64,000 bases of DNA from assembly GCF_028641065.1 (NCBI RefSeq), contig NC_073380.1, positions 81,220,001-81,284,000 of the forward strand. Reading direction: 5' to 3'. The translations under genes and the position numbers were made by a program. The notes under the pieces are model-generated. The model saw only the letters and a list, made by a program, of their open reading frames with translations. It did no database searches and was not told where the DNA came from. Shown piece after piece: positions 5,093 to 64,000 of this stretch. The stretch comes from Leucoraja erinacea. Lineage: Eukaryota. Every line of letters starts with the position of its first letter. Within the stretch, counting starts at the first letter, position 1.

Positions 5093-6690
5093 TTGGTTCT
5101 CGACAAATGCTGACTTTAACCGGTCGATGGATACGATGTCAGTTTTTCCGTTCCAACAGATCACAAAACTTTTGGGTAACATTTGGATAACTTGGTAAGG
5201 GCCATCGAATGCGTGCTGAAGAGGTTGGTGGATGGGGTCATGTTGGACCAAAACGTGTGTGCAGCGTTGGAGGTCAGCAGGCACGTAGACCATTGTGGGT
5301 GTTCACCATGTCACAGTTGCCCTGAGTAGCTGCAAAGTTTGCCTAATTGATCGACATATCTGCTTGGGTCATAGGACCTGCCTGTGGAATTTGCATCGAC
5401 AAATTCGCCAGGCAGCTTCAGAGTTGTGCTATAATCCATTTCTGCCAACGAACATCTTAGGTCTGCTTTCACCGCCGTACGAATGCCAAGCAGAACCAGA
5501 GGCAACCGTTCACTCCAGTTTGACGTTTCTCCTCCGGCTGCCAGGGCGGCTTTCAGCTGGAGCCATTCAATTAGGCCATTCGTTTGTGGATGATACGCAG
5601 TCGTTCGAATTCGGTTCCTCCCCAAGAGGTTGGTTAGTGTTTGAAACAGTGCAGACTCGGATTGCGGTCCTCGGTCTGTTGTGTTCGTACTTGGTACCCC
5701 AAAGTCCGAAATCCATCGGTCAACAAAAGCGCGGGATATTGCTTCCACTGAAATGTTGATGACTGGGATAGCATCTTGCCATCTTGTGATTATCTACTGA
5801 CTTGGCTTCACAAGTGAGCGGATATGTGTGGCTTCTTGATGGTGGGAGTGGGCCGCCCTAGGTACAGGAAACTCACAGAAAGGGGTCCTAGTTCTGGAGT
5901 GCCTGGAGTTCTCGGATTGTTGACCTGGTAGACAAGTCTTCGCCTATAATCCAACGTCACCAACGTCGGGCATTAATCCACCTGCATAGAAATGTGTGAA
6001 AGAAAATCCGCTCCGATAATGGGGTTTGACACGACTGCGACTATCGTTTTCTGCAGTCGAGCATGACTGATTTCTGACCAAATGTCTGTATGCTAGAATT
6101 GTTTGCATCAGGGTTAGGGTGAACACGCTCTTGGGAATTGGGAGGAACGACTGATAACTCGGCGCCGGAGGCGATGAGATAGTGCATACCCGAAAGGCGG
6201 TCACTGAGAAAAAGGCGGTGGCAAGTTTGCCCACGAGCAGCTGTCACCTCTACTGCCGGGCCTCGTCGTTTCCCGGGTGTTGATATTTGTAGAAGGAGCA
6301 AGGAGGTTGACACGACCGGGCCGCTGCAACATATTTCCGGTGTTTCCAGCAAATGCGTTGGGCGTCGCCTCGGCCCCGTCCCTGACCCCCAAGGTTTGCG
6401 TTAAACCTGAAACGGGGATGGTTCTGCTGGGCTGCCAAAGCCTCGAGTTGCGCAGTGAGCGCTTCAATGTGCTGTTCCTGCTGTGCATTTTCTGGCTTTA
6501 CTGTTGTTGCATTAACCACAGTCACCTGCAGTGCAGTGGTTGGCTCCATGACAATGTCGGCCTGTTTTGTGAGCTCATCTACGCTGGCCGATTGAAACAT
6601 ATCTATCAGGTGCCCCTATACCTGAGTAGGCATCAGGCACGTGCCGTGAATAAATAGTCAGGATAGGCATTCAGTATCGGCTCTCAAAAA
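5093..6690 (-). mobile_element. Second Gypsy remnant (gag, protease and integrase pieces)
   Basis: CWKHRKY..AARSCQPPC (gag), YLIASGAELSVVP (degenerate protease), TTDRGPQ..TTAYHPQTNG (integrase) and DGPYQV. Confidence 0.85.
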
Positions 6691-20801: not shown

Positions 20802-20840
20802 GGTTTATGTACTGGCTTCCCGTCGCTCTCGGCCACTGTG
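20802..20840 (-). other. 23-bp-spacer RSS of V3
   Basis: CACAGTG, 23-nt spacer, ACATAAACC. Confidence 0.94.
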
Positions 20841-21284
20841 TAGCCAATAAGCACAGTAATAGGTACCAGCATCATCCGCTCGGATATTCGTCAGGAGCAG
20901 AGTGCACGAATTTTTCTCAGATATTTTACTAGCAGTGAATCGTTCCTCCGCCACATCTTTCTGATATTCGTATGCAGTCTTAAAATACAAAAGCCGCTGC
21001 AGCCCTTCCCCCGGCCTCTGCCGGTACCAATGTATAACGGCTTCTTCCAAATCTATATTTCCAACCTCACAGTAAAAGTGGACAGGTTTCGTTGGACCTT
21101 TAGTGATCGATAATTGAGACTGCGTCAATATTTGAGCCGCCGATATACCTGCAGGAGAAAAGAGCACATGGTTATCGAAATGTTTCACACGGTAACAGTG
21201 AAAGGCTGATGAAAATGGTCGTTAAAATGCTAACCACTGACAGAGAAAGGAGATCAACAAAATGACAGCCAAGGCCGCCCTCAT
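20841..21284 (-). CDS. TRGV: TCR gamma V segment V3 (family A): leader 21242-21284, V exon 20841-21148
   Basis: Leader MRAALAVILLISFL, donor T|GTCAGT, acceptor ctgcag|GT. V exon reads HFYCEV...VIHWYRQ...DAGTYYCAYWL; paralogous to V1. Confidence 0.94.
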
Positions 21285-21611
21285 GTTCAGGAGTTGGGGC
21301 ATCGCGTCCAGCCAGGCGACTGAGATGCTGCTGGCTACTGGTCTCACCACCGCCCCACTTCTGTCACACCAGGAAGTTGCCGCTTCCATTTGGTGCGATG
21401 TCGTTTCCTATTCCAGCTCAGAGATAAATTTCACTCCGGATCTCCGCCTCACTGCGTGGTGCTGGAGCGCAAACCAAGCGCTACAGGCAGAGTGTCAAAG
21501 TATTGGTAAATGCAATACCGATCCCACTTATAGACTGGGAACGCTCCCCCTGGCAATAAACCGGAGTTCCCAATGCTCGGCGAGCAGTCAAACTGCCAGA
21601 GAGGCTCGAGG

Positions 21612-21650
21612 GGTTTTTGTATCGAACACCTGTCATTGCATCACACTGTG
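21612..21650 (-). other. 23-bp-spacer RSS of V4 (perfect consensus)
   Basis: CACAGTG, 23-nt spacer, ACAAAAACC. Confidence 0.96.
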
Positions 21651-22059
21651 AGACCCATCCGGCACAGTAATATGTGGCGGCATCAGACAGGTCGGTGTTA
21701 TCAATCACAAGAGAGAAAGTTGAGTCACTTCCCTCGGCTGAGAATTTGGCGGGTATTCCCTGATCCCGCTCCGATTTCCCTTTGCTATAGCGCAGGATCC
21801 TTCTGGGCGCCTGGTCGCTGCGTTGTTGATACCAATGGATATCATCGAGACCCTCTGCCAAACACTGTATCTTCACGGTTGTGGCCACAGGCTTCGTGAT
21901 CGACATCTGAGGCTGTTGCAAATCATTGGCAGAATATCCAGCTGTAAATTAAAAAACCATTGAAGCTACATGGACAAGGAAAGACGGGAAAGTGGTTGTT
22001 TCCATACAGTACTTACCAAGGAAAATCCACCAGATGGTAACTAGACAACGTAGCGACAT
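21651..22059 (-). CDS. TRGV: TCR gamma V segment V4 (family D): leader 22017-22059, V exon 21651-21941
   Basis: Leader MSLRCLVTIWWIFL, donor G|GTAAGT, acceptor ttacag|CT. V exon reads VKIQCLAEGLDDIHWYQQ...DAATYYCAGWV. Confidence 0.93.
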
Positions 22060-47375: not shown

Positions 47376-47414
47376 AGTATTTGATCTGGGCTCCCGCGGC
47401 GTTGTATCACTGTG
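47376..47414 (-). other. 23-bp-spacer RSS of V6 with divergent nonamer
   Basis: CACAGTG, 23-nt spacer, TCAAATACT. Confidence 0.8.
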
Positions 47415-49086: not shown

Positions 49087-49307
49087 GTGGATTATCGTAT
49101 TTAGAGTTTTGGCTAAAGAACCTCTAGGTTATACGAGCAGCAACCAGTTCTGTAATCAAGGGCAGGAGCGTCATACCCTTGTTGGGGTTGCCGTACTTTG
49201 CTGTGACTCTTCTATATGTCCCCACAACACACAGTGTTGAAAACCATTCAAAAAGGTGGTGAGCAAACACAGTTTTTTTCTCGCCCACTTCACTTGGATT
49301 CTCTTGC

Positions 49308-49337
49308 TATAATAATAATAATAATAATAATAATAAT
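49308..49337. repeat. (TAA)n microsatellite
   Basis: Visible directly in the sequence. Confidence 0.9.
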
Positions 49338-52329
49338 TGTATTTATAGAGCACTTTAAAACAAACATAGCTGCAACAAAGTGCTGTACATCACTAATCAT
49401 TGACAAAAAAGTTAATACACAAACCAAAATAACAATCAAAAGAAGATGTAAGTAAAAGACAGGTAACATAAAGAAACATCAAAACACCACAAACAAGACC
49501 CAATCCTAAGCCTCAGGCCATGGTCACAAGCCAGGGAGTACAAATGCGTTTTAAACACACTTGGGATGTTGAATAATGGACATGAGGGGGCTGTTCCTGA
49601 TTTTTCAGCGGCCGGTGTTCCAGAGTGGCCGGAAGCAGCAACAGAGAAGGCTCTATCCCCTCTATCCCTATAAGATCTGTTATATTGTTTCACAACCATG
49701 TACAGCAACCACGCTGATTTTCTAGAATAGAGCTTCCCTCAGGAGACTGATCAGTCTCTGTTTAAGCAGGACTATTGTAAGAATTTACCAGCTGTCAATG
49801 GTAAAGAAAATCCAACCCATTAATCCAAGACTAATCTATTGATATAAATTGGGACTAGAAAACATAGAAAAATAAGTGGCCGGAGGAGGCATTCGGCCCC
49901 TTTGAGCCACCATAGCCATTTCATTGTGATCATGGCTGCGTCGTCACCTATCAAAAACCCGTGCCTGCCTTCATTCCCCCATTTTCCCTTGACTCCACTA
50001 GCCCCTAGAGCTCTATCTAACTCTCTCTAATCCATAACAGTGACTTGTGCCTCCACTGCCCTCTGTGGGAGAAGTCCAAAATTCCATAAATCACACTCCT
50101 GGGAAAAAAGGTGTTTTCTCACCTCAGTCTTAAATTACCTCCCTTTATTCCAAGACTGTGGCCCCTGGTCTGACTTCGCCCATATTAGGAACCATTTCTT
50201 CCTGCCACTAGCTTGTCCAGTCCATTTTTTAATTTTATATTGGTTTCTATAAGATCATCCCTCATACTTCTAAACTCCATTGAATACAAGCCTAAGTCTT
50301 TTCATCTTTCCTCTAGTTCATTCCCCGCCATCCCATGGATCAATTACGTGCAACTTCGCTGCCCTGCCTCAATCACAAGGATGTCCCTTCCGCAAAGTAG
50401 GAGACCAAAACTGGTACACCATACTCCATATGTGGTCTCACGCAAGACCTATCAACCTGCAGAAGCACCTCTTACTCCTAACTGAAATTCCTCTTGTTAT
50501 GAAGGCCATCACGTTAGCTTTCATTCGCTTTCTTCACTTGCCTCTGTAAACCTGCACGCCATTGTAGAATTGACACCATTAACCCCTCATATTTGCGTTC
50601 ATCTTAGTTTCCTCCATGGTATCTGCTGGATGTTAATAAAATCCAGAAATAGGGGTGTTCTGCAAACCCCAATGTCCATATTTCCTTTGTGAAAACCTTT
50701 CTGCAGCAGCATCTTCACAAGTTCGGGGTTAAAGTGCGCCTAAGAAAAGGTTTGAAGCATTAACTCCATTTATCTCCATAGATGCCTGCCTAGCCTTTTG
50801 TATTCCAAAAATAGAGTCTGTGTTTTTTGTGTGATCGCAAGAAATATTTTTTGCATGCAGTGCACTGGAACCTTTGGCGGAAGAACTGAGAACAGACGGG
50901 AATGACCTGGCCCTGTAAATACATATATTTCCTTTCATTGACACCAACTGCTTGCAGTAACTCATCGGGTCAGACAGGAGAAAAAGGAATAGGTGACGTT
51001 TCGTGTCGAGACGCCCTCAGTGTCACAAGTTCACCAATCTGGAGCTATCTCCTTGGCAACATTTCGTCAAAGAGACCCAAACGATTTCACGAGCTGTCCA
51101 GCGGTTCAGGCAAACCTGTGGAGACAATGGAAGAGTCAACATTTCAGGTTGAACCCCTTTCCATAAACTGTGCAAGGGTCTCCGGCGAAGTGTCCTCCTG
51201 CCTCCAACCTAACCGCCAGGGTTCCTCCATCAGTCAGTATTTGAGCTGATGAAGGCAGCAAGGTAAAACTGTTCTGTTGGCCTCAAGTGTCCAGAAGGTT
51301 ACAGTCCTATCTTGCACAAAGTAAAAATGGTGGTGGTTGTCAGAAATTCACTGATTGTACCCTGTGATCGCATGTGTTTACTGCTGGGTACTCGGTATTC
51401 CCATATTCCCAACATTTCAACAAAGAACGTGCAGTGTTGTGATGCCCCTAGTGTGTAAGATAGAAGTCGTATATGGTCAGCGTGGGGGACCTCGGTGGAC
51501 CATCAGGTCTGTTTTCCACGACGTATGTCTAAAAACTGTTTATATAAAAATGCAATTTCCATTGTGAGTCACACAGTGTCTCAAACAACTACGCAGCTCA
51601 CGTCTGTATGCAACGAGCTTTAGACAACCAATTCATCATGGGCTGGTAAGTGCCAGGTAATTGACCATAAAAGAGCCAGTCAATGACCCAATAGAGAATT
51701 GAGAAACTCCACCGCCGTCGCTAGGGGGGGGGGGGGGACTATTCAATTTCCTAACCTCTGCTAATTCAGACTGGACCATTTATAGTATGTTTAGTATGGC
51801 CAGACACTTACATAGACAATATGGCCATGAGAAGCTTGGTATCCTACTAAATCTCCCACTGACCCCAGGGTATTTCCACCATAATACAAGCCACATGTAT
51901 ATCATGGAGTCATGTGCTGCAGAACACTCTGTATCTTCTACTGTGCTCTACCTATTGTATTCGAGTTTGGCTTAACTGTATTTATTATAGTATAATAACC
52001 TGAACATAGAGCACACAATGCTGGAGCAACTCCCAGGACAGGCCGACTCCTCTGGATAAGAACCGTATGAAGACGAAGGTTGAACATTTCGGGTCGAGAC
52101 TGTAGAGGTCAGGAGAGAGGAGACAGCGCATACTGGAACGGTAAGGAGGTGAACACGAGAATATGTGAACTGTTTGGGTTAGCCTTGCAGAACAAAGACT
52201 TTTCACTGTAACTGTGCTGTACCGAGGTGACAGTAATAAACCTAAACCCAACCTGAACCGAGAGTTGTACAGCACATAAATGGGTCACCCTAGACACGCC
52301 TTGGAAATAACCCTCTACTTGCACTAATT

Positions 52330-53135
52330 CAAGTTCAGTTCAAGGTGAGTTTATTGTGTCATGTGTCCCCCCTGCTAGGACATGAAATTTCTTGCTTTGG
52401 CTTCAGCCATAATAGAACATACTAGGCATTGACTACAAAACAGATCAGTGTGTCCATCATGCCATTATATAACTATATACACACATGACTAAAATAGAAC
52501 TGTTAAAAGTGCAATATCCTATCATGTGTTATTAATGGTCAGATTTTTTGTCGGAGCCAGGTTTTTAATCGCCTGATGCTGTGGTGAAGTAGCTTAGTTC
52601 GTGAACCTGGTCCTTGCAGTCTTCAGGTCTCCTGTACCTTCTACCTGAAGGTTGCAGGAGAGATGTGTGTATGGCCAGGATGGTGGTGGGTCCTTTGAGA
52701 TACTGCCACCTTTTTGAGGCAGCGCCTGCGATAATCCCCTAGATGGAAGGAAGGGTCATAGCTGATGATGGACTGGTGCAGTGTTTACACTTTTTGGGTT
52801 TTTTTCCTCCCATGGCGCTCAATTGCCGAAACCACGCCACGAGCACCGGTCAGCATGCTCTCCTACCGTGCACCTATAAGAAGTTAGAGAGAGTCCTCCT
52901 TGACAACCGCCTTTCCGTATCTTCTCCGAAGTAGAGGCGCTGATGTGCTTTCTTGAATATTGCATAGTGTTCTCGGGACTCAGGAAAGGTCTCAGAGATG
53001 TGCCACCCCAGGATTTGAAGCTCTTGGGAAGAAGCTCTTGAAAAAAGAACTTGTGAAAAAAGAAAAGAGCTTGGAAAAAATCGAGAAAGAAGGAAAAAAA
53101 GAACCCTTTTCAACCTCGACCCGTTGATATAAACG
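52330..53135 (-). mobile_element. Rex1-type LINE 3' part (noisy)
   Basis: Reverse complement of 7810-8510 with many indels (KKAHQRLY, LSRRTLSN). Confidence 0.75.
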
Positions 53136-53370
53136 GACTGTGGGGGGGTGGGGTTGTGGGGGGGTGTGGGGTGGGTTGGGGGTCAGTGGGTTGGTGGGGG
53201 TTGTTGGGGTGGGGGGGGGTGGTGGGTTGGGTTGCTGGGGGGGGGGGGGGGGTTGGTGGGGTGGGGGTGGGGTGGGGGGGGGGGGTTGGGGTGGGGGGGG
53301 GGTGGGTGGGTGGGGTGGGGCGAGGGAGGGGTGGGGTTTGGTGTGTGGGCGGGTGGGGGCTTGCATGGTG

Positions 53371-53470
53371 NNNNNNNNNNNNNNNNNNNNNNNNNNNNNN
53401 NNNNNNNNNNNNNNNNNNNNNNNNNNNNNNNNNNNNNNNNNNNNNNNNNNNNNNNNNNNNNNNNNNNNNN
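53371..53470. other. Assembly gap (100 N)
   Basis: Run of 100 n, preceded by G/T low-complexity sequence at 53140-53370. Confidence 1.
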
Positions 53471-55777
53471 CACGTACCAAAACCATGCTGACTATCCCTA
53501 ATCCAGCCCTTGCAACGTCCACATGCCTTAATAATCTATCCCTCATGTTGAAAATGTAGAGGCTTTTATTACCAACCCCTGCGTTCCCTCTTATTGAATT
53601 CATCAACTACAACCCAGACAAACGTCCCCATTCCTCGGCGGACCTGGTCGATTTAGATTTCGGTTCAACGTAAAAGAACAATCAGGGAGTGTACAGCTTT
53701 GTTTCCCATTTCTGGATTAGCCTATGGCTCAGCACATTGAAGTGCGAGACTAGTCAAAAACTCTTATGTAGTAATTTCTGGTGTAACTTTGCAAAATGAT
53801 GCGCTGTTTCAGCATTTGTTTTTACTCTCAGACTTCCAGCACTATAAGGTTTATTTATTCACTGATATCTGTCCGTGTTAAAGGGATTCGGCCTGAGTTG
53901 TTGCAATTAGTTTTTTGTGCGGCCACTGGCCATGAAATTAATAAATATTATAACCTTAATCCGTTCAAGTTCTTGCCCTTCCCGGAGAGTGTTTTGCGTT
54001 CGATGCAGCCAATTTCAATTGATCCCATTTTTCAATTTGTAAAAAAGGACGTTATCAATCTATACTTCTGCTTGCCACTACCACAAGGTCCTTCGCTCAT
54101 GTTTCAAAGCCAGTAGTAAATAATAGTACCTTTGGACAGGGATTGGTTGGAACCCTCAATGTCGTGCAGTACATATAAACATTATTTCAATAACTTGGCG
54201 CTTCCATGTTGTAACGTCCGAGTACCTGACGCAACCGTCCTACCTGACCCCCTGAATTACTCCGCACTTTGTGATTGCTCCATTGCCCCAACGTTGCATT
54301 TCCCTGGTTTTCCAATTTTAAAAGGTTGCTTCGGCATTGTTTGTTTTTAAGCAACTTTTTTTGACCATTTCTTGCAAACCAACCGGCCAGAGATTTACTT
54401 GAGCGGGGCACTATCTATTTATTTTTGAAAACTCGAGAAAATTGGAAATTATGTCAATGGGTAATGTTCTTTCTTCTTCTCACGAGTCCACATTGCAAGA
54501 TTAGAAATTGTACTGCCACCCTGTACACCCTCATCGGCATTCGCTTGCCATGCGTCTTGCGCGTTTTGTTGGCTTCTTGTTCGTGTTGGTGGAAGTTTTG
54601 GTGACAAGGGCCGTGACCATGCACGCTCTTGTTCTCTTTGGACCCCTAGAATTTACGGTCCATTGTTTGATACTTTGCTGACGAAACAAAGAACTGCAGA
54701 TGCTGGTTTACAGGATACACAAAAAATGCAAAATTGCTGGGCAAACTCACGGATCAGGAAATAAATGTGACGTACTTTAACACAATTGGGCGAAGTGTCT
54801 GAAGCCGTTCAGAAAACATGTTAAGGTGGTATCCGCGTTACTTTAGAAGAGTGAGCGAGACTTGATTTGAAAATACAATAAACCGAGGACCTTACGGTGG
54901 ATAGTAGAGTTTTTTTCTCTTCTCTTGGAAACTCTAGAACTAGGTGGCCCACTTTAAAAATAACTGGCTTGTCGCACATTAAGTCTCGAGTGAGTGGTGA
55001 TTTTGTAGTTCTCTCGGAGTGGTCGGTGGAAGCATAGATTTTGAATAGTTTCAGTGCGAGTTATGATATTACTCTATTATGACGCATGCGGTGAAAGGGT
55101 TGCCGGTGGTGGTGTTTGTGGGCGGAGATTTATAGTCAGCATACCCATGCTCCGCAATTTATCTGTGGTAACAGAGAGCTCCCTTATGTCGGACGCCCGT
55201 ATGGTGGTCGGCGCTGGTGGTGAATCATTTTTGCCTTGCCTCGTGGCCTCTATTCTCAGAGACGGGTCCACCTGCCCTGATTACCGATCCTGGTTTTCAG
55301 GGTCTAACACAAGTTAGCGGCTAATTCCCAATGGAATAATTGGGCTGACCACATCCTGTATTTTCCGTTTGTTTTATTCGGAATAAACACTCACCGGTCA
55401 CGATCAACGCATTAAAAATTCAAAGTAATCTTACTAACTCGTTTATGGTCCGTTTCCTAGAATGAACATGCTTTCAAATGCGTTGAAATGTTAGCAAAAG
55501 ATTCAGCAATACCAGTGATTTGATGAAACAACAAACCGGCACCCCCACCCCCACAACAGTCTCTCTGGCATTAGATTAACGCTGCTCCGTTCTCTGTATT
55601 TTGCTCTGTAATCACCGTTCTAGCTTCAACACGCGGCCTTCATTACCTCTTACAAGCCAACCATTTTTGCAACAGATGTACATCGCTTTGTAGCGCAACG
55701 AGTACATAAGACGGAAGCTTACATGAATGGAAGACATTATCAAAATGTACAATGTACAAAATTTAACAAAATACGAG

Positions 55778-55893
55778 TTACACTGCTTCTTCGGTGCCCT
55801 CATTATTCCATCTTGGTAGAAGTATGCACGAGATGATGCCGCGCTTTACACGGTGTTCAATGTCACGCCCTGCAGTGAGCTTCGCCGATATTC
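55778..55893 (-). CDS. TRGC: Probable TRGC transmembrane/cytoplasmic exon (corrupted)
   Basis: Candidate acceptor cctag|GA, then fragments reading TV(Y)..GIISCIL(Y)KM...KKQC-stop, resembling TCR gamma TM ends. An AATAAA lies downstream on the minus strand at 55373-55378. Confidence 0.35.
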
Positions 55894-58800
55894 CTAGGTG
55901 GACATGGGAAATGTAAAATCGTACTTTCCGGTTTATTCGCAGAACTTATGATTCTAAGTATTTACGATAGGTATGTTGGTGTTTTTTTCGAAGCGAATGC
56001 GCAGATACCGCCAATGGTACAAAAATAAGCTTAGCCAAAGCGTGGGCAAATGTCTCCAGCATGTCAACCTCCCATAATCAGTGACTCAATTTTGGCATAT
56101 TTTTTATTCCAGATGGATGTAATGTTGAATTCTGTAACGTTGTACCTGCTTTGGCTGGACAAGAGGCGAACAGCATGCTCAAAATTAATTTCACCTATCA
56201 TATTCAATGATGGTTTTGAGTGTTTTCTGAATATGGACGTATTGTACAGCAAAATCACAGGAACGTATACCCAACGAGTTCATGCTCGTGTTCGTGTTTA
56301 CTTTTTTTAAAATTACATTTAGTGACTCTTAAATAGAAAATGTCCTTTACTGATACAATGTCACAGTAATGTCATGTTTTGTCCTGCCATCTTTCCCAAC
56401 GTTAAACCTGCGCATTAAAGCCACGGAGCCAACAGACTCCCAATTCCATTATTTAATAACTTATGTCTTTAAACTGGTTCATTTCTATGTGATTCTCTCG
56501 GTGTTGATTTTCACAAATTTACATTTTTGTAGCGTACGTTGGCAAAGCGATTTAAAAATATTGTTCAACTTTGATGTTTTCTTGGTGAAGTTGTATCACG
56601 AGGTGCCCCTTATGGTCATTACGAATGCACGTGTACCTTATTTATACATGTGACAATAACTGACCTTGAACACCTTGAAGATGTGCCCCTTATTGACAGT
56701 GCTCTACGGGGTGAGTGCTTGTTTCTGTTACCCAATGATATATCTACAGTGGCTTGGTAGCTTCGTCGTTCATATGGTGTCTGCAAACTCTTTATTTTCT
56801 TTTACATTTCTGGTTAACTTAATGTTGGGCGTTTCTTTCTAATTTCCTTTTCAATTACCCTCTCTCCATATTGCTCATCTATTTCATTCCTTTTCATCGT
56901 CCTCGCTCTTGTACGTTGCACAGAAGGGGGCGGGTCGTAAAGACATATAACTATTATTTCCTTCATTTCATTTTCTTCATTTCTTCAACACTGTGTGCGC
57001 CTTTTGGATAGTTTGATCTTGCATTAACTCTGTGTATCTCCCATTTTCTGTGTTTCTACGTTGCTAACTGTGTTACACTGCGGATTTATCTTTTAAAATG
57101 TCAAAGACCATTTTATTTGTGTCCGTAGCGTCCATTCTAATGCTGTTTCTTCTGGGCAACCTGTTACAATAATTGGGTCGTTTCTTTCATTTCCTGTCCA
57201 CAAATCGGATATCTTGGATGACCTATCTTAAGCCGCTTCATTTGACAGAGTTGGGGTCATGCCGGAATTAGAGACATTTGCACCTCACCCTTGCTCTTTC
57301 TAAGGACATTACATGAAACCGGCCCCGTCCCGTCAGAAGGTCAACTAGTTTGATTTATTTCCTGTCTGGTAATCCTGTGACTCGCGGGAAGCAGCCCATT
57401 TTTACAGTTAAGCTGTAGTGTCACCACGGTACCAGACCATTTACGCCTGCCATAATACGCGGACCACTGGTTTTGCTTTAAAAGCAGTATTTACCGTCTT
57501 CCGTTGTTCCCTGATTTTCCTGGTACTAATCGGCGGGGCAGTGGGAACCCACTGCTTACCATCCCTGGCGCCTCTAAATGGGTTAAAGAATACAGAAACA
57601 TGTCATTAGAAATATCGACAATTCCAAGGATTGGTCGCATTTACGCTTTAAAGTTAAAACGAATTATATTTCAAACCCGTCCCGCAGAAATGGGTGCGTT
57701 TGTTCGAACTTCTATAGATATTCATATACAGGAATTTACCTTGGTGTCGCCGCCGCAAGTGACAACCTGACATCCAGTGACATATAGAATACATATAAAA
57801 CTTACACATGATAATAACATTATCGATGAAACATTAATTAAATAAATAAAGCAACGAGGCTGCTATTTTTTGGGTTATGAGTAGAGCTACTAACTCGGGA
57901 AAAAAACTGTGTTTAATGTGTGCCTGTGTGCAGCTTTGACTCCGAGTCGCCTGCAAGAATGGAAGGTTATTCAAAGGAGGGGGTTGTGGGCCAGAACGGC
58001 AAGAGGGGTCAGCGACGATTCTTATCCGCTCGCGCCTCCTCCTTGCAGTAGTACAGTTATGTCAATGGTGAAGGTTGCAGCCAATAACCTTATCAGCTGA
58101 TCGTGAGTATTTGTGCGGCCGACCGAGTCCCCCGCCGCCCACGATCACTTATCCTATATCACCAGGGGAATGTACATGTTTGTTCACCGATGCCGAAGTA
58201 AACCAAGAAAACCTGGACTATCTTTGGTAGTGAGTGTGAGGGGTGAGGAAACCGGAGCACCCGGATAAAAAACCCACAAGGATAACGTACAACTCGTTGC
58301 AGACAACTCCCCTAGTCAGCTCCGAACCCGCGTTTGTGGCTCTCTAAGTGCAGCCAATTCCACCATCCTGCCGCCCTAATTGGTTAGACGGTTTTGTGGT
58401 CCCATCTTTCCCCCCCCGGCCCTTCTCCTGCCGTTGTTACTATTGAGCGACTGCGAAATTAAATGACTCTCCAGTGAAAGGTTGCCATATTTCCGCTCTT
58501 ACTTTCACTTGTGAGGTATCTTCTCTGTGCATTTGTAACACTAGACCGAATCCTAGATCTGTCTAAATTCAACAGATATAGCATGAAACCGGAAAAAACT
58601 ACAACAATCTGTTGACGTACGATATCATATTGCGACGTAGTTACAAAACCAAAAAGAGTATTATTGGTAGATGGTATTGGTATATACTTATATATAGAAA
58701 ATACTTGTCGTGGTTTATATAAATTAGAAATAACAAGAGTGTAACCCCCACCAGAATTATGTTGTGAGTATTGGGTTACAAGGCCTTGTCAAGCAGACGT

Positions 58801-59507
58801 TACAATGCCCTTCTCCGGACCGCCCGAACCTCCAGGACGTGTGGTAACAGGACACTTCATTGCCCATAGCTAATATCGGCTCCTGACCGGCCTGCTGAGT
58901 GCCCCCCCATCACCCCGGGACCGTCTCCTCCCTCTGATGCCTACGTCGCACAGACACATCTGCCACTTTAAGTCTGTTGTGAAACTGTGTTTTTTACTGT
59001 TTTAACTGTTTCTTTTTACAACCTTGTTTCTTTCTTCGTCTCGGGTAATCTAAATCCCAAATTGTACTTAGTTATTTATGTTAGGACGTCGGATGGAAGC
59101 TGCAAACCCAATCTCGTCGTTTGCGCCACTTAGGTGCCATGACAATAAAAGTATATTATTATTATTATTATTATATTAATGAATGGGGGGTATTGGGGGG
59201 TTATTATTAGATGACCGACGCAACGTTCGCGAATGGGAAAAGAGGTTCGGATGAAAGGAGTGCTGCTCTGGCGGGAACTTCATTCCGGATTATCCGCTTG
59301 AGCATTCGTTGGGGACAGCAGCTATTTATTGTTATTATCTCGCTGCTCTATTTGGGAGCGCGGGGTTGGGGGGGGGGATGGGGGGTGGGGGTAAAGGGCT
59401 GCACTTGGAGGAAGCTGTTCTAAAGTTTAATTTGGTAGAGCTGGTGATTAATTGTATTTTGTCAAGTCTTTCATGCCAACATTGCTGCGGTCGCGGAGGC
59501 TGCGTAC

Positions 59508-59889
59508 CCTTATTTTGCCTGGCCTTTTATCGATCATTCTGCGACGGGGGAGGGTCGATGTCATGTTTCGCGTTGGCAAGAAATTGTTTCCTCCGACTAC
59601 CCATTGTAGGCTCTGGTGGACAACGAGTCGGGCTCATCTGCGAATACGTGTTGGTCCCCATTTTTTCGTCACCGATCCGATCCTCGACCTCTTCGGCCAC
59701 CGCATCCCGTCGCAGACTTTCGCCACCTGCTCCTTGGCCACCGATTTGTTTCCACTCGCCCTTGCTCACCTCGTGGAAGAAGTCGGTAATCATCAGACGC
59801 AACGGACTTGCTATTTTGCTTTTCACCTCCGTAGGCTGACCTGGGCTGGAAAAGACGTTGATTTATTCCGAAGCTCTGGGTGGTACAAT
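59508..59889 (-). CDS. TRGC: TCR gamma constant Ig (C1-set) exon, frameshift-corrupted
   Basis: Acceptor tttttacatcag|AT (phase 1, giving Asp). ORF fragment reads ...ITDFFHEVSKGEWKQ...TNTYSQMS...KQFLANAKH, matching the C1-set DFFPxV.V.W, TYSxxS and F.C...H pattern. The 3' boundary is approximate. Confidence 0.7.
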
Positions 59890-62800
59890 CTGATGTAAAA
59901 ATAGCAATTATGGATTAGAAATTCCAATATTCGCCACTGAAAATCCATCGGCTGCAGATGGGAGAACACCGTTCGAAATTTAACAACCGTGCCGCTGACA
60001 ACTCTTGACGAGGAGTCAGGCTATTGGCAAAAGAATATAACATAATGACGACTACTTTACAATTATGTAGCAAGGGTCTTAGATTAACAGGCAAGCTGCT
60101 GTGCACAAGTTCTGGGAGCGCAGGAGATTGGGCGGTTTTAAAGGGCTTGTGGAAAGGGATGTAACACCTGACTGTCCGTGTCCTCAATTCCTACAGTGGA
60201 CTTGTGAGTATCGGGGGGGGGGGGCGATTTAAGACCGCCTTTAGATATCTATGCTATTACCGATTTGCCGAGCACTGTGGCGCGCATGTTTCATGCTCAC
60301 CTAATATCACTTCTTCTGTCCTGACAACGAGGGCCCTTCCGCCCACGAACCCTCCTCTTCAGGGCTGTGCATTCCAGATTTCGAACCACACAGTTGTAAG
60401 TGACCCACTTTTTCCTTCATATAAGCCTTCACCCCTTTATTAATGCTGAATAATGCACTCCTATTGTTGGCACTGGTTTACCTACGCTGCCAATGTTCCA
60501 CCTACATTTTTGGGTCGATCGTCAAACAGTCCCCCGGGGGCATCAATACGGTCTCTCATACTCCCACGTGTCTTGCTTCCACCATACTGTTCGCCTCTTT
60601 GCATTTTCCTCGCCGTTCTGTAACTCCGGCTTTCAGTCCCCAGCTACACCTCTACTCTTGCGCTCCCTTCCTGAGCAACGTGTGTTGTCCATGCCGTCGA
60701 CCGAAACATGCACAATAATTCCAGCGGTGTCTTAACTAGTCTCTTGATATGCCACGTATCAGTAGCTCTCTGCTTTTATATCTCGTACCCCGCGTGAATG
60801 AAGGCACCTTGGTGTCTTCCTACTACTACTTAAATAACCCCGCTTTGCTGGTTATAGGGGGCCCCCTAGACAGTTGCAACAACTGGGCGCGTGGCCACCC
60901 TACGATTCCTCAATACATTCACTGGTTCCCATCACTCGGTTGCTTTTGTCCTAGCCGTTAATATTCCCCCAGATATATTATTCTTCATTTTTGATCCAGT
61001 ATTAAATTGCATTTAGCGCAGTCCTTTGCACATCTGATGAATGGTGGATGTCGTTTGTATAACAGAGAATAATCCGCACCCCTATTTTCTGCAGCACACG
61101 AAGCGACCTTGGTGGTCGGGCAGCTAACGCGCTAATTCATATCCACCCAAAAAAACCAAAGGTCCACGGCACTTATCATCACGGCTTCCAATTTGAAAAA
61201 ATACCGTCCATTACCCGCCCCTTCAGTCCAAATTCCCGTAATTTCCCCTGGATCCCAGGGGAGGCATTTCTCCACATCTTTTACTAGTCTGGCATTTTCA
61301 ATTAATAACTAGTGCCATGCAGTGTTCACAAAGCTATAACTCTCGGATCGAATTACAAACGGTTCCTATCGTTGGGTAGCAGCAAAATCTGTGACTTTCC
61401 AGCTAAAAGAAAGGAACTTCAATTTCTGAAACCGGGGCGAAGCTACACTTAGACTTACGCACTGGTAATCCGATACAACCTCTGGCCTGAAGACCGGGCC
61501 CTGTTTTTTTTTTTCCTTATCACTGCTCAACCAACCTCTCTCTGGGGTGTTGCAACCCCAGACTTCACACTGACAACCTGTGTCAAGCTTATCACACGGG
61601 GCTACCTTGTGTTACAAGCGGCTACGTGGAACATAACGAGCACTTGTTGGCGATCACAAGGAGTCGCAAGACTTCGGACATCCGCAATCCACAGTTTGTT
61701 CGCCGTCAAGAAGCCCAGTTAGTCTCAACGACAACCCAATTTTGTAGAAGATCGTTAAATCTTCCTGCCGGGGATTTCAATGCAATGTAATAACGAACTT
61801 CTACAGCGTTTATGTTTTGAACGCCGGGTGTTAAATCGTTTTCGGGTGTGATCTCTACAACAGTTGTTGGATCTGAAACGTGGCGGAAGACCACCGCTGC
61901 CCAAAAGCTTAACTACACCTCGGCTATCCCGTCCACTTAGGGCAACCCACCATTAGCGTGCCCTTTCCACCGACAACAGGGCGTCGTTAGCAAAAACATA
62001 GCCTCAACCGTTTGTAATTCAGTCAGCTGCCAGAAAGACTAGCCAAGCAGCAGCCACACAATCCAGGCTTGTACGCAGACTCATCTCGGATCTCGATTTA
62101 CCGTCTCTCTCTACAGAACTATTAACAGCTCTGCAACAGTGGTGAGTTCCATAACGCGGCTTTGATTCTTGATGGTACACGAACGACACTCGCGTTCTCT
62201 GTTCGCCCTCGTGTCTTAAACTACAAAACGGCGGGATAGAGAACAGAGTTTAACTTTTTTAATTCGAAGAAGCACCTCATTGTACATTAACTCTATTTCT
62301 GTCCACAGTTACTGTTTATCCTTGCTTTCGGCTGCTACTGAATTGTCTATTTTTAATTTCCTCGCATCGTTATATTTAATGTTTTATGGCGGAGACTCGC
62401 GGTCCCTCCCGTTTCAGCTGTTCTCGAGCAGCCTAGTCCCTTAATGAAGGGGGCCCCGACCCGAAACGTCACCTCTCCCTTTTCCTTTCCTATATCCTGC
62501 CTGAACCCGCTGAGTACTCCACACTTTGTTCTATCTATCTCGAGCAAATCTGGCTTCGTACAAATTCACAATAAATGTTAGTAGGTGTATGACAGGAATG
62601 CATCTGCTTGGTTTAAACCTAAGATAGACGCATGACATTCTGGAGTAACCTCATCGGGACATTGGCTTTTGCATCTCTGGGCTAGAAGAGATGGGTGACG
62701 TTTCAGGTCACGAGAACCGATTTATCGTCCTGCGTCTCAGTACGGGCCCGAGTTCTGTTCTACTCTTGCAAAAAGCGAGCATTACCAACCCTTGGCTGCA

Positions 62801-62994
62801 GCCCTCCCGCACTCTCTGTAATTAATATAGCTGTTTAGAAGGAACCTCTCAGTTGCTGGAAAAATCCCCAGGCCACCCCAACCCTGCTCGGGAAACTCGC
62901 AGTGAGCAGCATCGATGGAGCGAGGAAACTGTCGAAGATCTTTGTCGGGTCGATACCCACCTTGCTTCAGGATGCCCTTCACGCCCGAACCTAC

Positions 62995-63054
62995 CTGTTG
63001 ACATAAGCCCATTACTAATGCCGAATATTTCTACATGTAGGGCACTGTAGGGTA
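62995..63054 (-). other. TRGJ: J-gamma-like segment plus junction, fused to the V3 copy
   Basis: Minus strand ...tacagtgccctacatgta GAA ATA TTC GGC att agt aat ggg CTT atg tca ACA G|GTAGGT. This gives IFG-x4-L-x2-T with the spacing of FGxGTxLxVT, followed by a phase-1 splice donor. Confidence 0.7.
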
Positions 63055-63515
63055 TAGCGATTAGCACCTCTAGGGACTACATCATCCAGTCGGATATCTA
63101 GTCCGTTAGCAGACATGGTCACGAATTTTTCTTCAATATTTACTATCATTGAAATCGTTTCCTCCGCCACATCTCTCTTTATTCGTATGCAGTCTTAATA
63201 CAAAAGCCGCTGCAGCCCTTCCCACCGGCCTCTGCGGACCACTGTCCTGAACGGCTTCATTCAAACTATTCTTCCCACTTCACAGAAAATGGCAGGTTTT
63301 CGTTGGACCTTTAGGTGATCCGTTAAATTGAGGACTGCGTCAATATTTGAGCCGTCGATATACCATCGCAGGAGAAAAGAGCCACATGTGTTAATCGAAA
63401 TGGGGTCACACAGCTGGTGGGTACCAGTGAAAGGCTGATTAAAAGGTCGTTAAAAATGCTAACCACTGACAGAGAAAGTAGATCAACCAAAAGGGACAGC
63501 CAAGGCCGCCTATTT
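63055..63515 (-). other. TRGV: Indel-rich second copy of V3 (leader, intron, V exon) lacking its RSS and joined to a J-like segment
   Basis: Colinear with 20841-21284 (e.g. caaaagccgctgcagccctt, cgttggacctttag, ctaaccactgacagagaaag) with scattered indels. The V3 RSS spacer, nonamer and 3' flank are absent. Confidence 0.85.
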
Positions 63516-63884
63516 GTTCAGGGAGTTGGTGCCATCGAGTCCACTCCAGGCGGACTGAGATGCTGCTGGCTACTGGTCTCACCACCCGCCCCCTTCTTCA
63601 CAGTCCTGCACCAGGAATTGCCGCTTCCATTTGGTGCGATGTCGTTTCCTATTCCAGCTCAGAGATAAATTTCACTGTCGCGGAAGTCTCTCGCCCTCCA
63701 CGCGCGTGGTGCGTGGGGCGCAAACAAGCGCTACAGTCTGAGTGTCAAAGTATCGGTAAATGCAATAACAGAGCCGATCCCACTTCTAGACTGGGAACGC
63801 TCCCCCTGGCAATAAACCGCGAGTTCCCAATGCTCGCACGCGAGCCAGTCGGGAAGCACTTGCCAGATAGGACTCGGCCTAGGA

Positions 63885-64000
63885 AGTTTTTGTATCGGAA
63901 CACCACTCTTCATTGCCATCACACTGTGAGACCCATCCGGCACGAAGTAATAGGTGGCGGCACTAGCAGGACAGGTCGGTGTCATATCAATCACAAGAGA
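63885..64000 (-). other. TRGV: Indel-rich copy of the V4 3' end and its unrearranged RSS (runs off the window)
   Basis: cactgtgagacccatccggcac matches 21644-21665. Heptamer at 63922-63928, nonamer-like at 63885-63893; the spacer is inflated to 28 nt by indels. Confidence 0.85.

What the first reader, a model, noticed from the sequence alone, without database searches (positions are those of the whole stretch)
55370..59889. Corrupted TRG constant-region exons placed upstream of the germline V array
Seen: about 3.1 kb downstream of the J donor lies a phase-matched acceptor and a C1-set domain remnant (ITDFF.EV..W, TYSQMS, F...AKH). Further on are a TM-like GIISCIL..KM segment and an AATAAA. This completes L-V-J-C on the minus strand. 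Established: the described sandbar shark TRG locus is a translocon with C 3' of all V segments. A C located 5' of six V segments therefore means either a mis-scaffolded duplicate or a second cassette, as in mammalian multi-cassette TRG loci.
Basis: partly seen in the sequence, partly recalled or inferred. Interest (0 to 1): 0.7.

Follow-up and report, generated by a model that had tools for sequence, protein, structure and literature searches.

The report
False second T-cell receptor gamma gene
These broken exons are an error-riddled second copy of the genome's one intact T-cell receptor gamma constant gene, which lies 29 kb left of the window; the copy most likely comes from a single unpolished long read of a T cell that had already joined its V and J segments, so it is likely an assembly artefact and not a second gene cassette.

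Summary
One intact three-exon constant gene lies 29 kb left of the window, next to a MENTAL-domain gene (STARD3NL position), and spliced RNA matches it. The contig right of the gap (53471 onward) repeats the same locus: collinear with the clean J-C region, then jumping 46.4 kb from the C-proximal J straight to the coding end of the V at 20840, then collinear with the V array for 31 kb. Its first 10.5 kb are only about 83% identical in exons, introns and UTR alike, insertion-rich, with 62% A/C or G/T swaps and a strand-skewed spectrum; the other contig end at the gap shows the same errors. That is the published raw PacBio profile, not evolution. Best reading: a falsely duplicated overlapping contig whose tip is one uncorrected read from a somatically V-J-rearranged T cell. 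True locus: 7 V, 3 J (one atypical), 1 C. A germline-joined allele is not fully excluded (about 3%). The scan noted an analogous somatic joint in another genome (e1-10291785, unchecked).

The parts
53371..53470 (.). 100-N scaffold gap; the only gap in the 354 kb read around the window
53471..64000 (-). noisy tip of the right-hand contig: second copy of the 3' flank, C, J-C intron, J and V; about 83% identical to the clean locus; identity rises to 95-99% from about 64500 (beyond the window)
55373..55378 (-). AATAAA, copy of the clean C 3' UTR signal
   Evidence: UTR 88.4% identical to the clean one
55778..55893 (-). corrupted C exon 3 (transmembrane and cytoplasmic); clean copy G000:C4:81187667-81187800
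   Evidence: 78.1% identical, 5 inserted and 23 missing letters; clean exon matches P0003 residues 104-147 at 100%
59508..59889 (-). corrupted C exon 1 (C1-set), 382 bases against 342 in the clean copy G000:C4:81191257-81191598
   Evidence: 81.8% identical, 28 insertion and 5 deletion events, 1 transition and 22 transversions; clean copy is an open C1-set frame
62995..63039 (-). J part of the joint, from the C-proximal J (clean J at G000:C4:81194411-81194467), first 10 bases and signal sequence absent
   Evidence: scores 69 against this J, 19 and 16 against the other two
63040..63054 (-). 15 letters between V end and J; cannot be read as N nucleotides or for frame because of the noise
63055..63515 (-). 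corrupted leader and V exon of the rearranged V, copy of the germline V at 20841-21290, ending at its coding end with no spacer or nonamer
   Evidence: scores 386 against V20840, 108 against its paralogue V1354, at most 23 against the other five
63890..64000 (-). 3' end and signal sequence of an unrearranged copy of the V at 21650 (frameshifted by the same noise)
20802..21290 (-). germline V used in the rearrangement, with its 23-spacer signal (heptamer at 20840)
49087..53370 (.). noisy tip of the left-hand contig, same error signature; internal control for the assembly's raw-read errors
   Evidence: 89.7% identical to its right-hand copy, 70% A/C or G/T swaps; against a third repeat copy the left tip has 54 gap letters in 715 columns, the right copy 5 in 685

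Best explanation
The block is a second, error-riddled copy of the single T-cell receptor gamma locus in which one V is joined directly to the C-proximal J, and it is most likely one uncorrected long read from a T cell that had rearranged this locus, left as the tip of an overlapping contig that was never purged. Shown: collinearity with the clean J-C region, a 46,383-base skip whose two ends fall at the V coding end and 10 bases into the J, a 31-kb overlap of the two contigs, and the error spectrum. Inferred: (1) RAG made the deletion in one lymphocyte present in the sampled tissue (12/23 coding joint, both signals lost); (2) the assembler extended the second-haplotype contig along this read, which has no partner reads across the joint and so ends the contig; (3) polishing reads aligned better to the clean copy, so the tip stayed raw and in two patches was probably overwritten by repeat-bearing reads; (4) scaffolding placed the contig next to its neighbour with a 100-N gap.
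For: Only two C-like DNA matches in the assembly (2 of 2 candidates); in the protein search of 66 candidates only the clean exon scores above 43% identity, the noisy copy has 43% and a stop, the other 27 matches are 26-37% identical Ig-type domains on other contigs. 53471-62581 aligns to window-relative -34790..-25989, and 63052-94022 aligns to 20838-53026. Identity is flat across function: exon 1 81.8%, TM exon 78.1%, UTR 88.4%, J-C intron 82.2%, C introns 84.3%, V side 83.6%. Whole block: 9303 columns, 504 substitutions, 763 inserted and 279 missing letters; 62% A/C or G/T swaps, 20% transitions; G>T 114 against its complement C>A 15 (P 5e-20), which double-stranded neutral mutation would not give. 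Polished overlaps: 97.5-98.8% identical, 61-76% transitions, 0.09-0.19 indel events per substitution against 1.3-1.8 in the large noisy parts. The left contig's tip, ordinary sequence, has the same spectrum. Raw PacBio reads have about 8% insertions, 3% deletions and elevated A/C and G/T swaps (PMC7671305, passages); duplications at contig boundaries of about read length are a common assembly error (PMC8081667, passages). Two DNA runs of one sample hold 84% and 81% of 489 sampled words of the clean J-C stretch. A contig of run X20 splices clean exons 1-2-3 with 0, 1 and 1 differences and introns of 1837 and 1541 bases; 2 reads of X23 and 1 of X24 show the same joints.
Against: I could not see the long reads, so 'one read' and 'somatic' are inferred from the error level. 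The substitution rate (5.4%) is above the 1-2% reported for PacBio in PMC7671305; alignment penalties, allelic differences and mis-polishing may explain it, untested. The insertion excess is weaker in 53471-58000 (276 inserted, 185 missing) than in 58000-62560 (479, 94), so the tip may be a poor consensus of two reads. Two patches (62560-62718, 62817-62989) resemble dispersed repeat copies (about 72%) more than the collinear clean sequence, and 213 bases are missing at 54758-54764; mis-polishing or haplotype difference is assumed, not shown. Eleven letters spanning the joint equal the start of a dispersed repeat found 3 times in 354 kb, so the joint letters may be overwritten. The best DNA runs are one sample and may be the assembly's source.
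Confidence: 0.9

Rival explanations
1. The right-hand contig is the animal's second haplotype and carries an inherited, germline-joined V-J (46-kb deletion made by RAG in a germ cell); only its tip happens to be unpolished.
For: Germline joining by RAG-like activity is documented for shark Ig light chains (PMC2193156, abstract and passages). The polished part of the right contig differs from the left by 1-2.5% with a transition excess, as alleles do, and runs X1 and X2 hold two contig versions at L023:6544-6668, one identical to the right copy.
Against: An inherited allele would be covered by about half of all reads and should be corrected; instead 31-mer sharing with the clean locus is 0-3% in all seven 1.5-kb bins from 53471 to 63970 and about 50% right after, and the noise is densest around the joint. 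The joint region has no second copy in the assembly.
Confidence: 0.03
2. A real, old, decayed second V-J-C cassette 5' of the V array, as in mammalian or salmon multi-cassette TRG loci.
For: Cassette loci exist in salmon, ruminants, carnivores and mouse (PMC7349638, section 6 and passages). The copy sits in the same orientation next to the array.
Against: Transition/transversion ratio 0.05-0.29 and more indel events than substitutions, against 0.92 and 0.10-0.20 for true V paralogues; strand-skewed spectrum; divergence falls from 17% to under 5% within about 1 kb inside one continuous copy; the copy begins exactly at the gap; its J is already fused to a V, which cassettes are not.
Confidence: 0.02
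3. The skip is a library chimera or an assembler misjoin of germline DNA, with no T cell involved; the block is still a false duplicate.
For: The 15 joint letters are unreadable and include 11 letters equal to a repeat end; nearby patches look overwritten.
Against: Both ends fall within 0 and 10 bases of a 23-signal V coding end and a 12-signal J coding start, in the order and orientation of deletional V-J joining. With 7 V ends and 3 J starts, 15 bases each, in about 75 kb, chance is near one in a million (own arithmetic). Neither germline breakpoint carries that repeat.
Confidence: 0.05

Closest known systems
Sandbar shark TRG locus, 5 V - 3 J - 1 C (Chen et al. 2009, not held; read through PMC7349638 section 6 and PMC5931798 passages)
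   Same: After removing the duplicate the locus here is a single cluster: V array, three J, one three-exon C.
   Different: Seven V instead of five; one of the three J is atypical; the assembly adds four false V copies, one false J and one false C.
False duplications at contig boundaries, heterotype and homotype (Rhie et al. 2021, PMC8081667, passages)
   Same: End-to-end overlap across a gap, allelic-level differences in the polished part, low consensus quality at the tips, noisy tip of about read length.
   Different: The tip is not collinear germline DNA: it carries a V-J joint, so a somatic rearrangement is the likely cause of the contig break.
Germline-joined V-J genes of shark Ig light chains (Lee et al. 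2000, PMC2193156, abstract and passages)
   Same: A fused V-J with lost signals seen in genomic sequence of a cartilaginous-fish-type locus.
   Different: Those were recovered repeatedly from erythrocyte DNA and several animals; this one is a single copy with raw-read errors, in a translocon T-cell receptor locus.
Multi-cassette TRG loci of ruminants, carnivores, mouse and salmon (PMC7349638)
   Same: A C gene upstream of further V genes.
   Different: Their cassettes hold unrearranged V and J and diverge by ordinary substitutions; this copy does neither.

Membership tests
TRG locus (clean copy) | V segments with 23-spacer signals, J with 12-spacer signal, no D | tested here: met
   Seven intact V frames with 23-spacer signals; 12-spacer signal at the C-proximal J; signal consensus is recalled; no D-type signal pair appeared in the scan
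TRG locus (clean copy) | C of three exons: C1-set, Cys-bearing connecting peptide, transmembrane with Lys | tested here: met
   PF07654 at 55 bits; spliced exons 1-2-3; P0003
TRG locus (clean copy) | STARD3NL in opposite orientation at the 3' end | tested here: met
   MENTAL-domain exons at G000:C4:81155875-81162203 on +, about 25 kb beyond the TM exon; a second MENTAL gene is on C27; synteny from PMC7349638
TRG locus (clean copy) | AMPH at the 5' end | tested here: inconclusive
   BAR-domain search gave 9 matches of 42 candidates, none on C4; exon-wise search can miss short exons
TRG locus (clean copy) | Best sequence match is a named TCR gamma chain | tested here: inconclusive
Second TRG V-J-C cassette | Unrearranged V and J with their signals inside the cassette | tested here: not met
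   V is fused to J; signal matches near the joint score 13, the median of 156 background windows is 12-13
Second TRG V-J-C cassette | Divergence from the other C by ordinary mutation | tested here: not met
Germline-joined V-J gene | Joint present in non-lymphoid DNA, at depth, in several animals | not testable with these tools
Somatic V-J coding joint | Deletion from V coding end to J coding start under the 12/23 rule, with end trimming and added letters | tested here: met
   V kept to its last base, J lacks its first 10, 15 letters between; added letters not readable
False duplication at a contig boundary | Overlap across a gap with low-quality tips | tested here: met
False duplication at a contig boundary | Halved or collapsed long-read depth, optical-map or Hi-C conflict | not testable with these tools
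   No long reads, maps or Hi-C on hand

The most novel reading that the evidence does not exclude
One haplotype of this animal carries an inherited, germ-cell-joined TRG V-J with a 46-kb deletion of three V and two J, giving a pre-assembled gamma chain; germline joining, known for shark Ig genes, would then extend to a translocon T-cell receptor locus.
Probability: 0.03. Interest if true: 0.75.

Novelty: not a real feature. Interest (0 to 1): 0.14.

Why it matters
As biology it changes nothing: the locus has the ordinary one-C layout. It matters as a correction: an annotator counting from this scaffold would report 11 V, 4 J and 2 C where there are 7 V, 3 J and 1 C, and might publish a second cassette or a germline-joined receptor. 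It also shows how one lymphocyte's recombination can likely break and duplicate a contig at an antigen-receptor locus, and gives a by-product snapshot of one V-J use (fourth V from the 5' end to the C-proximal J).

Tried and rejected
No RNA holder listed in the run search; no evidence either way. RNA lay: no reads over the J segments, so no V-J joints were seen and the V-J pair could not be checked in transcripts; most laid reads were repeats. Protein search among longer proteins found nothing at E 1e-10; PDB searches did not name the chain. AMPH not found. Retained V or J signal at the joint (hybrid or open-and-shut joint): rejected, scores at background. Somatic hypermutation as the source of the differences: rejected, because they cover 10 kb including introns and 3' flank and are mostly indels. 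Real SINE insertions in the J-C intron: not supported, the two patches replace sequence of similar length instead of adding to it. The noisy exon 1 could not be scanned as protein because of stops. Reading frame of the joint: not determinable. Literature: listings showed no title or abstract start on a rearranged T-cell read inside an assembly, and those none on a germline-joined TRG; only listings were seen (13 of 14, 25 of 43, 3 of 3, 9 of 9, 20 of 301), so this is no claim of absence. PMC12090573 passages held nothing on the point. The species was not determined. No supplements were read.

Full report
Coordinates are window coordinates; negative values lie left of the window (window 1 = G000:C4:81220001).

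Observation. A hinge exon at 57573-57495 completes the set. The block begins right after the only gap in 354 kb, 100 N at 53371-53470.

The clean gene. A DNA search of the whole assembly with the remnant gave two matches from two candidates: itself and a copy 29 kb left of the window at 80% identity. That copy is an open 113-residue C1-set frame. The protein search gave 29 matches from 66 candidates: the clean exon at 100%, the noisy copy at 43% with a stop, and 27 Ig-type domains at 26-37% on other contigs. A 450-base contig of run X20 splices clean exon 1 to exon 2 to exon 3 (0, 1 and 1 differing letters, introns 1837 and 1541); two reads of X23 and one of X24 show the same joints. An unnamed public protein, P0003, has the same spliced sequence. 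Upstream lie two ordinary J (-25533, about -25320) and an atypical third (about -24200), and seven intact V frames with 23-spacer signals (heptamers at 47414, 37066, 21650, 20840, 15685, 1354, -12191; the signal consensus is recalled). MENTAL-domain exons on the opposite strand lie about 25 kb beyond the last C exon, the place of STARD3NL, the 3' neighbour of TRG (PMC7349638, section 6 read whole, other passages). AMPH was not found and no search named the chain, so 'TRG' rests on anatomy and synteny. The layout matches the one-C sandbar shark locus as given in that review (5 V, 3 J, 1 C); the original paper was not held.

What the block is. Aligned to the fetched neighbourhood, 53471-62581 is collinear with -34790..-25989, and 63052-94022 is collinear with 20838-53026. 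So the right-hand contig is the same locus again, with a skip of 46,383 bases (20840 to -25542). The V side matches the V at 20840 (score 386; its paralogue 108; the other five at most 23) up to its last coding base; the J side matches the C-proximal J (69; the others 19 and 16) from its 11th base; 15 letters lie between; neither signal sequence is retained above background. This is the anatomy of a deletional V-J coding joint.

Why it is noise, not decay. Identity to the clean locus is 78-88% in every part, coding or not. Over 9303 columns there are 504 substitutions, 763 inserted and 279 missing letters; 62% of substitutions are A/C or G/T swaps and 20% transitions; G>T outnumbers its complement C>A 114 to 15 (P 5e-20) (gaps of 10 or more were left out of these counts). 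Three polished stretches of the overlap are 97.5-98.8% identical with 61-76% transitions; two true V paralogue pairs have a transition/transversion ratio of 0.92 and 0.10-0.20 indel events per substitution, against 0.05-0.29 and 1.3-1.8 in the large noisy parts (the short TM and hinge windows gave 0.67/2.8 and 0.20/0.5). Identity rises from 84% to 93% and then 95-99% between 63500 and 65000 within one continuous copy. The tip of the left contig (49087-53026) shows the same spectrum (70% A/C or G/T swaps), and a third repeat copy shows that there the left contig is the noisy one. Raw PacBio reads carry about 8% insertions, 3% deletions and elevated A/C and G/T swaps (PMC7671305, passages). False duplications at contig boundaries, of about read length, are among the commonest assembly errors (PMC8081667, passages). 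Two DNA runs of one sample hold 84% and 81% of 489 sampled words of the clean J-C stretch; they may be the assembly's source.

Mechanism. Shown: duplicate, overlap, joint position, error spectrum, clean spliced gene. Inferred: a T cell in the sampled tissue deleted the 46 kb; one long read from it extended the second-haplotype contig; no other read crosses the joint, so the contig ends 9.6 kb later; polishing reads preferred the clean copy; the scaffolder kept both contigs. Confidence about 0.95 that the second C is false, 0.9 for the somatic-read origin.

Results against or unexplained. The substitution rate (5.4%) exceeds the published PacBio figure; the insertion excess is weaker in the left half of the tip; two J-C intron patches resemble dispersed repeats more than the clean sequence; 213 bases are missing at 54758-54764; 11 letters at the joint equal a repeat end. 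Mis-polishing and allelic differences would explain these but were not tested. Long reads were not available.

Rivals. A germline-joined allele (known for shark Ig light chains, PMC2193156, abstract and passages) should be well covered and polished; 0.03. A decayed second cassette fails the spectrum tests; 0.02. A chance chimera would not land on both coding ends; 0.05.

Verdict. Observation confirmed; the second-cassette reading is not supported; the feature is an assembly artefact over an ordinary one-C TRG locus. Interest 0.14.

Noticed in passing
window 20838-53370 and G000:C4:81283052-81314022: About 31 kb of the V array is present twice across the gap; V47414 is identical in protein in both copies, V37066 differs at three residues, so V counts from this scaffold are inflated by four.
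   Followed up: yes
G000:C4 clean C exon 1, L007:1258-1596: The C1 domain holds a perfect 24-base tandem repeat (eight residues twice); it is in the clean copy, the noisy copy and the RNA contig of X20, so it is real.
   Followed up: partly
L007 about 5750-5810 (window-relative about -24200): A third, most V-proximal J-like segment with an atypical motif (FGFGIKL) and no canonical signal found by the scan; use untested.
   Followed up: no
window 62560-62718 and 62817-62989: Two patches of the noisy copy look like hybrids of the clean sequence and a dispersed short repeat; possibly overwritten during polishing.
   Followed up: partly
window 20840-21950: Two V genes of different families lie only about 800 bases apart (heptamers 21650 and 20840), far closer than the other V spacings of 5-15 kb.
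   Followed up: no
window 53150-53370: The left contig ends in a degenerate C-rich run with no counterpart in the right copy; probably read-end junk.
   Followed up: no
G000:C25:22.30-22.98 Mb: A dense cluster of at least 20 C1-set exons, 30-36% identical to this C, mostly in 108-residue open frames; possibly an Ig light-chain or other Ig-family cluster.
   Followed up: no
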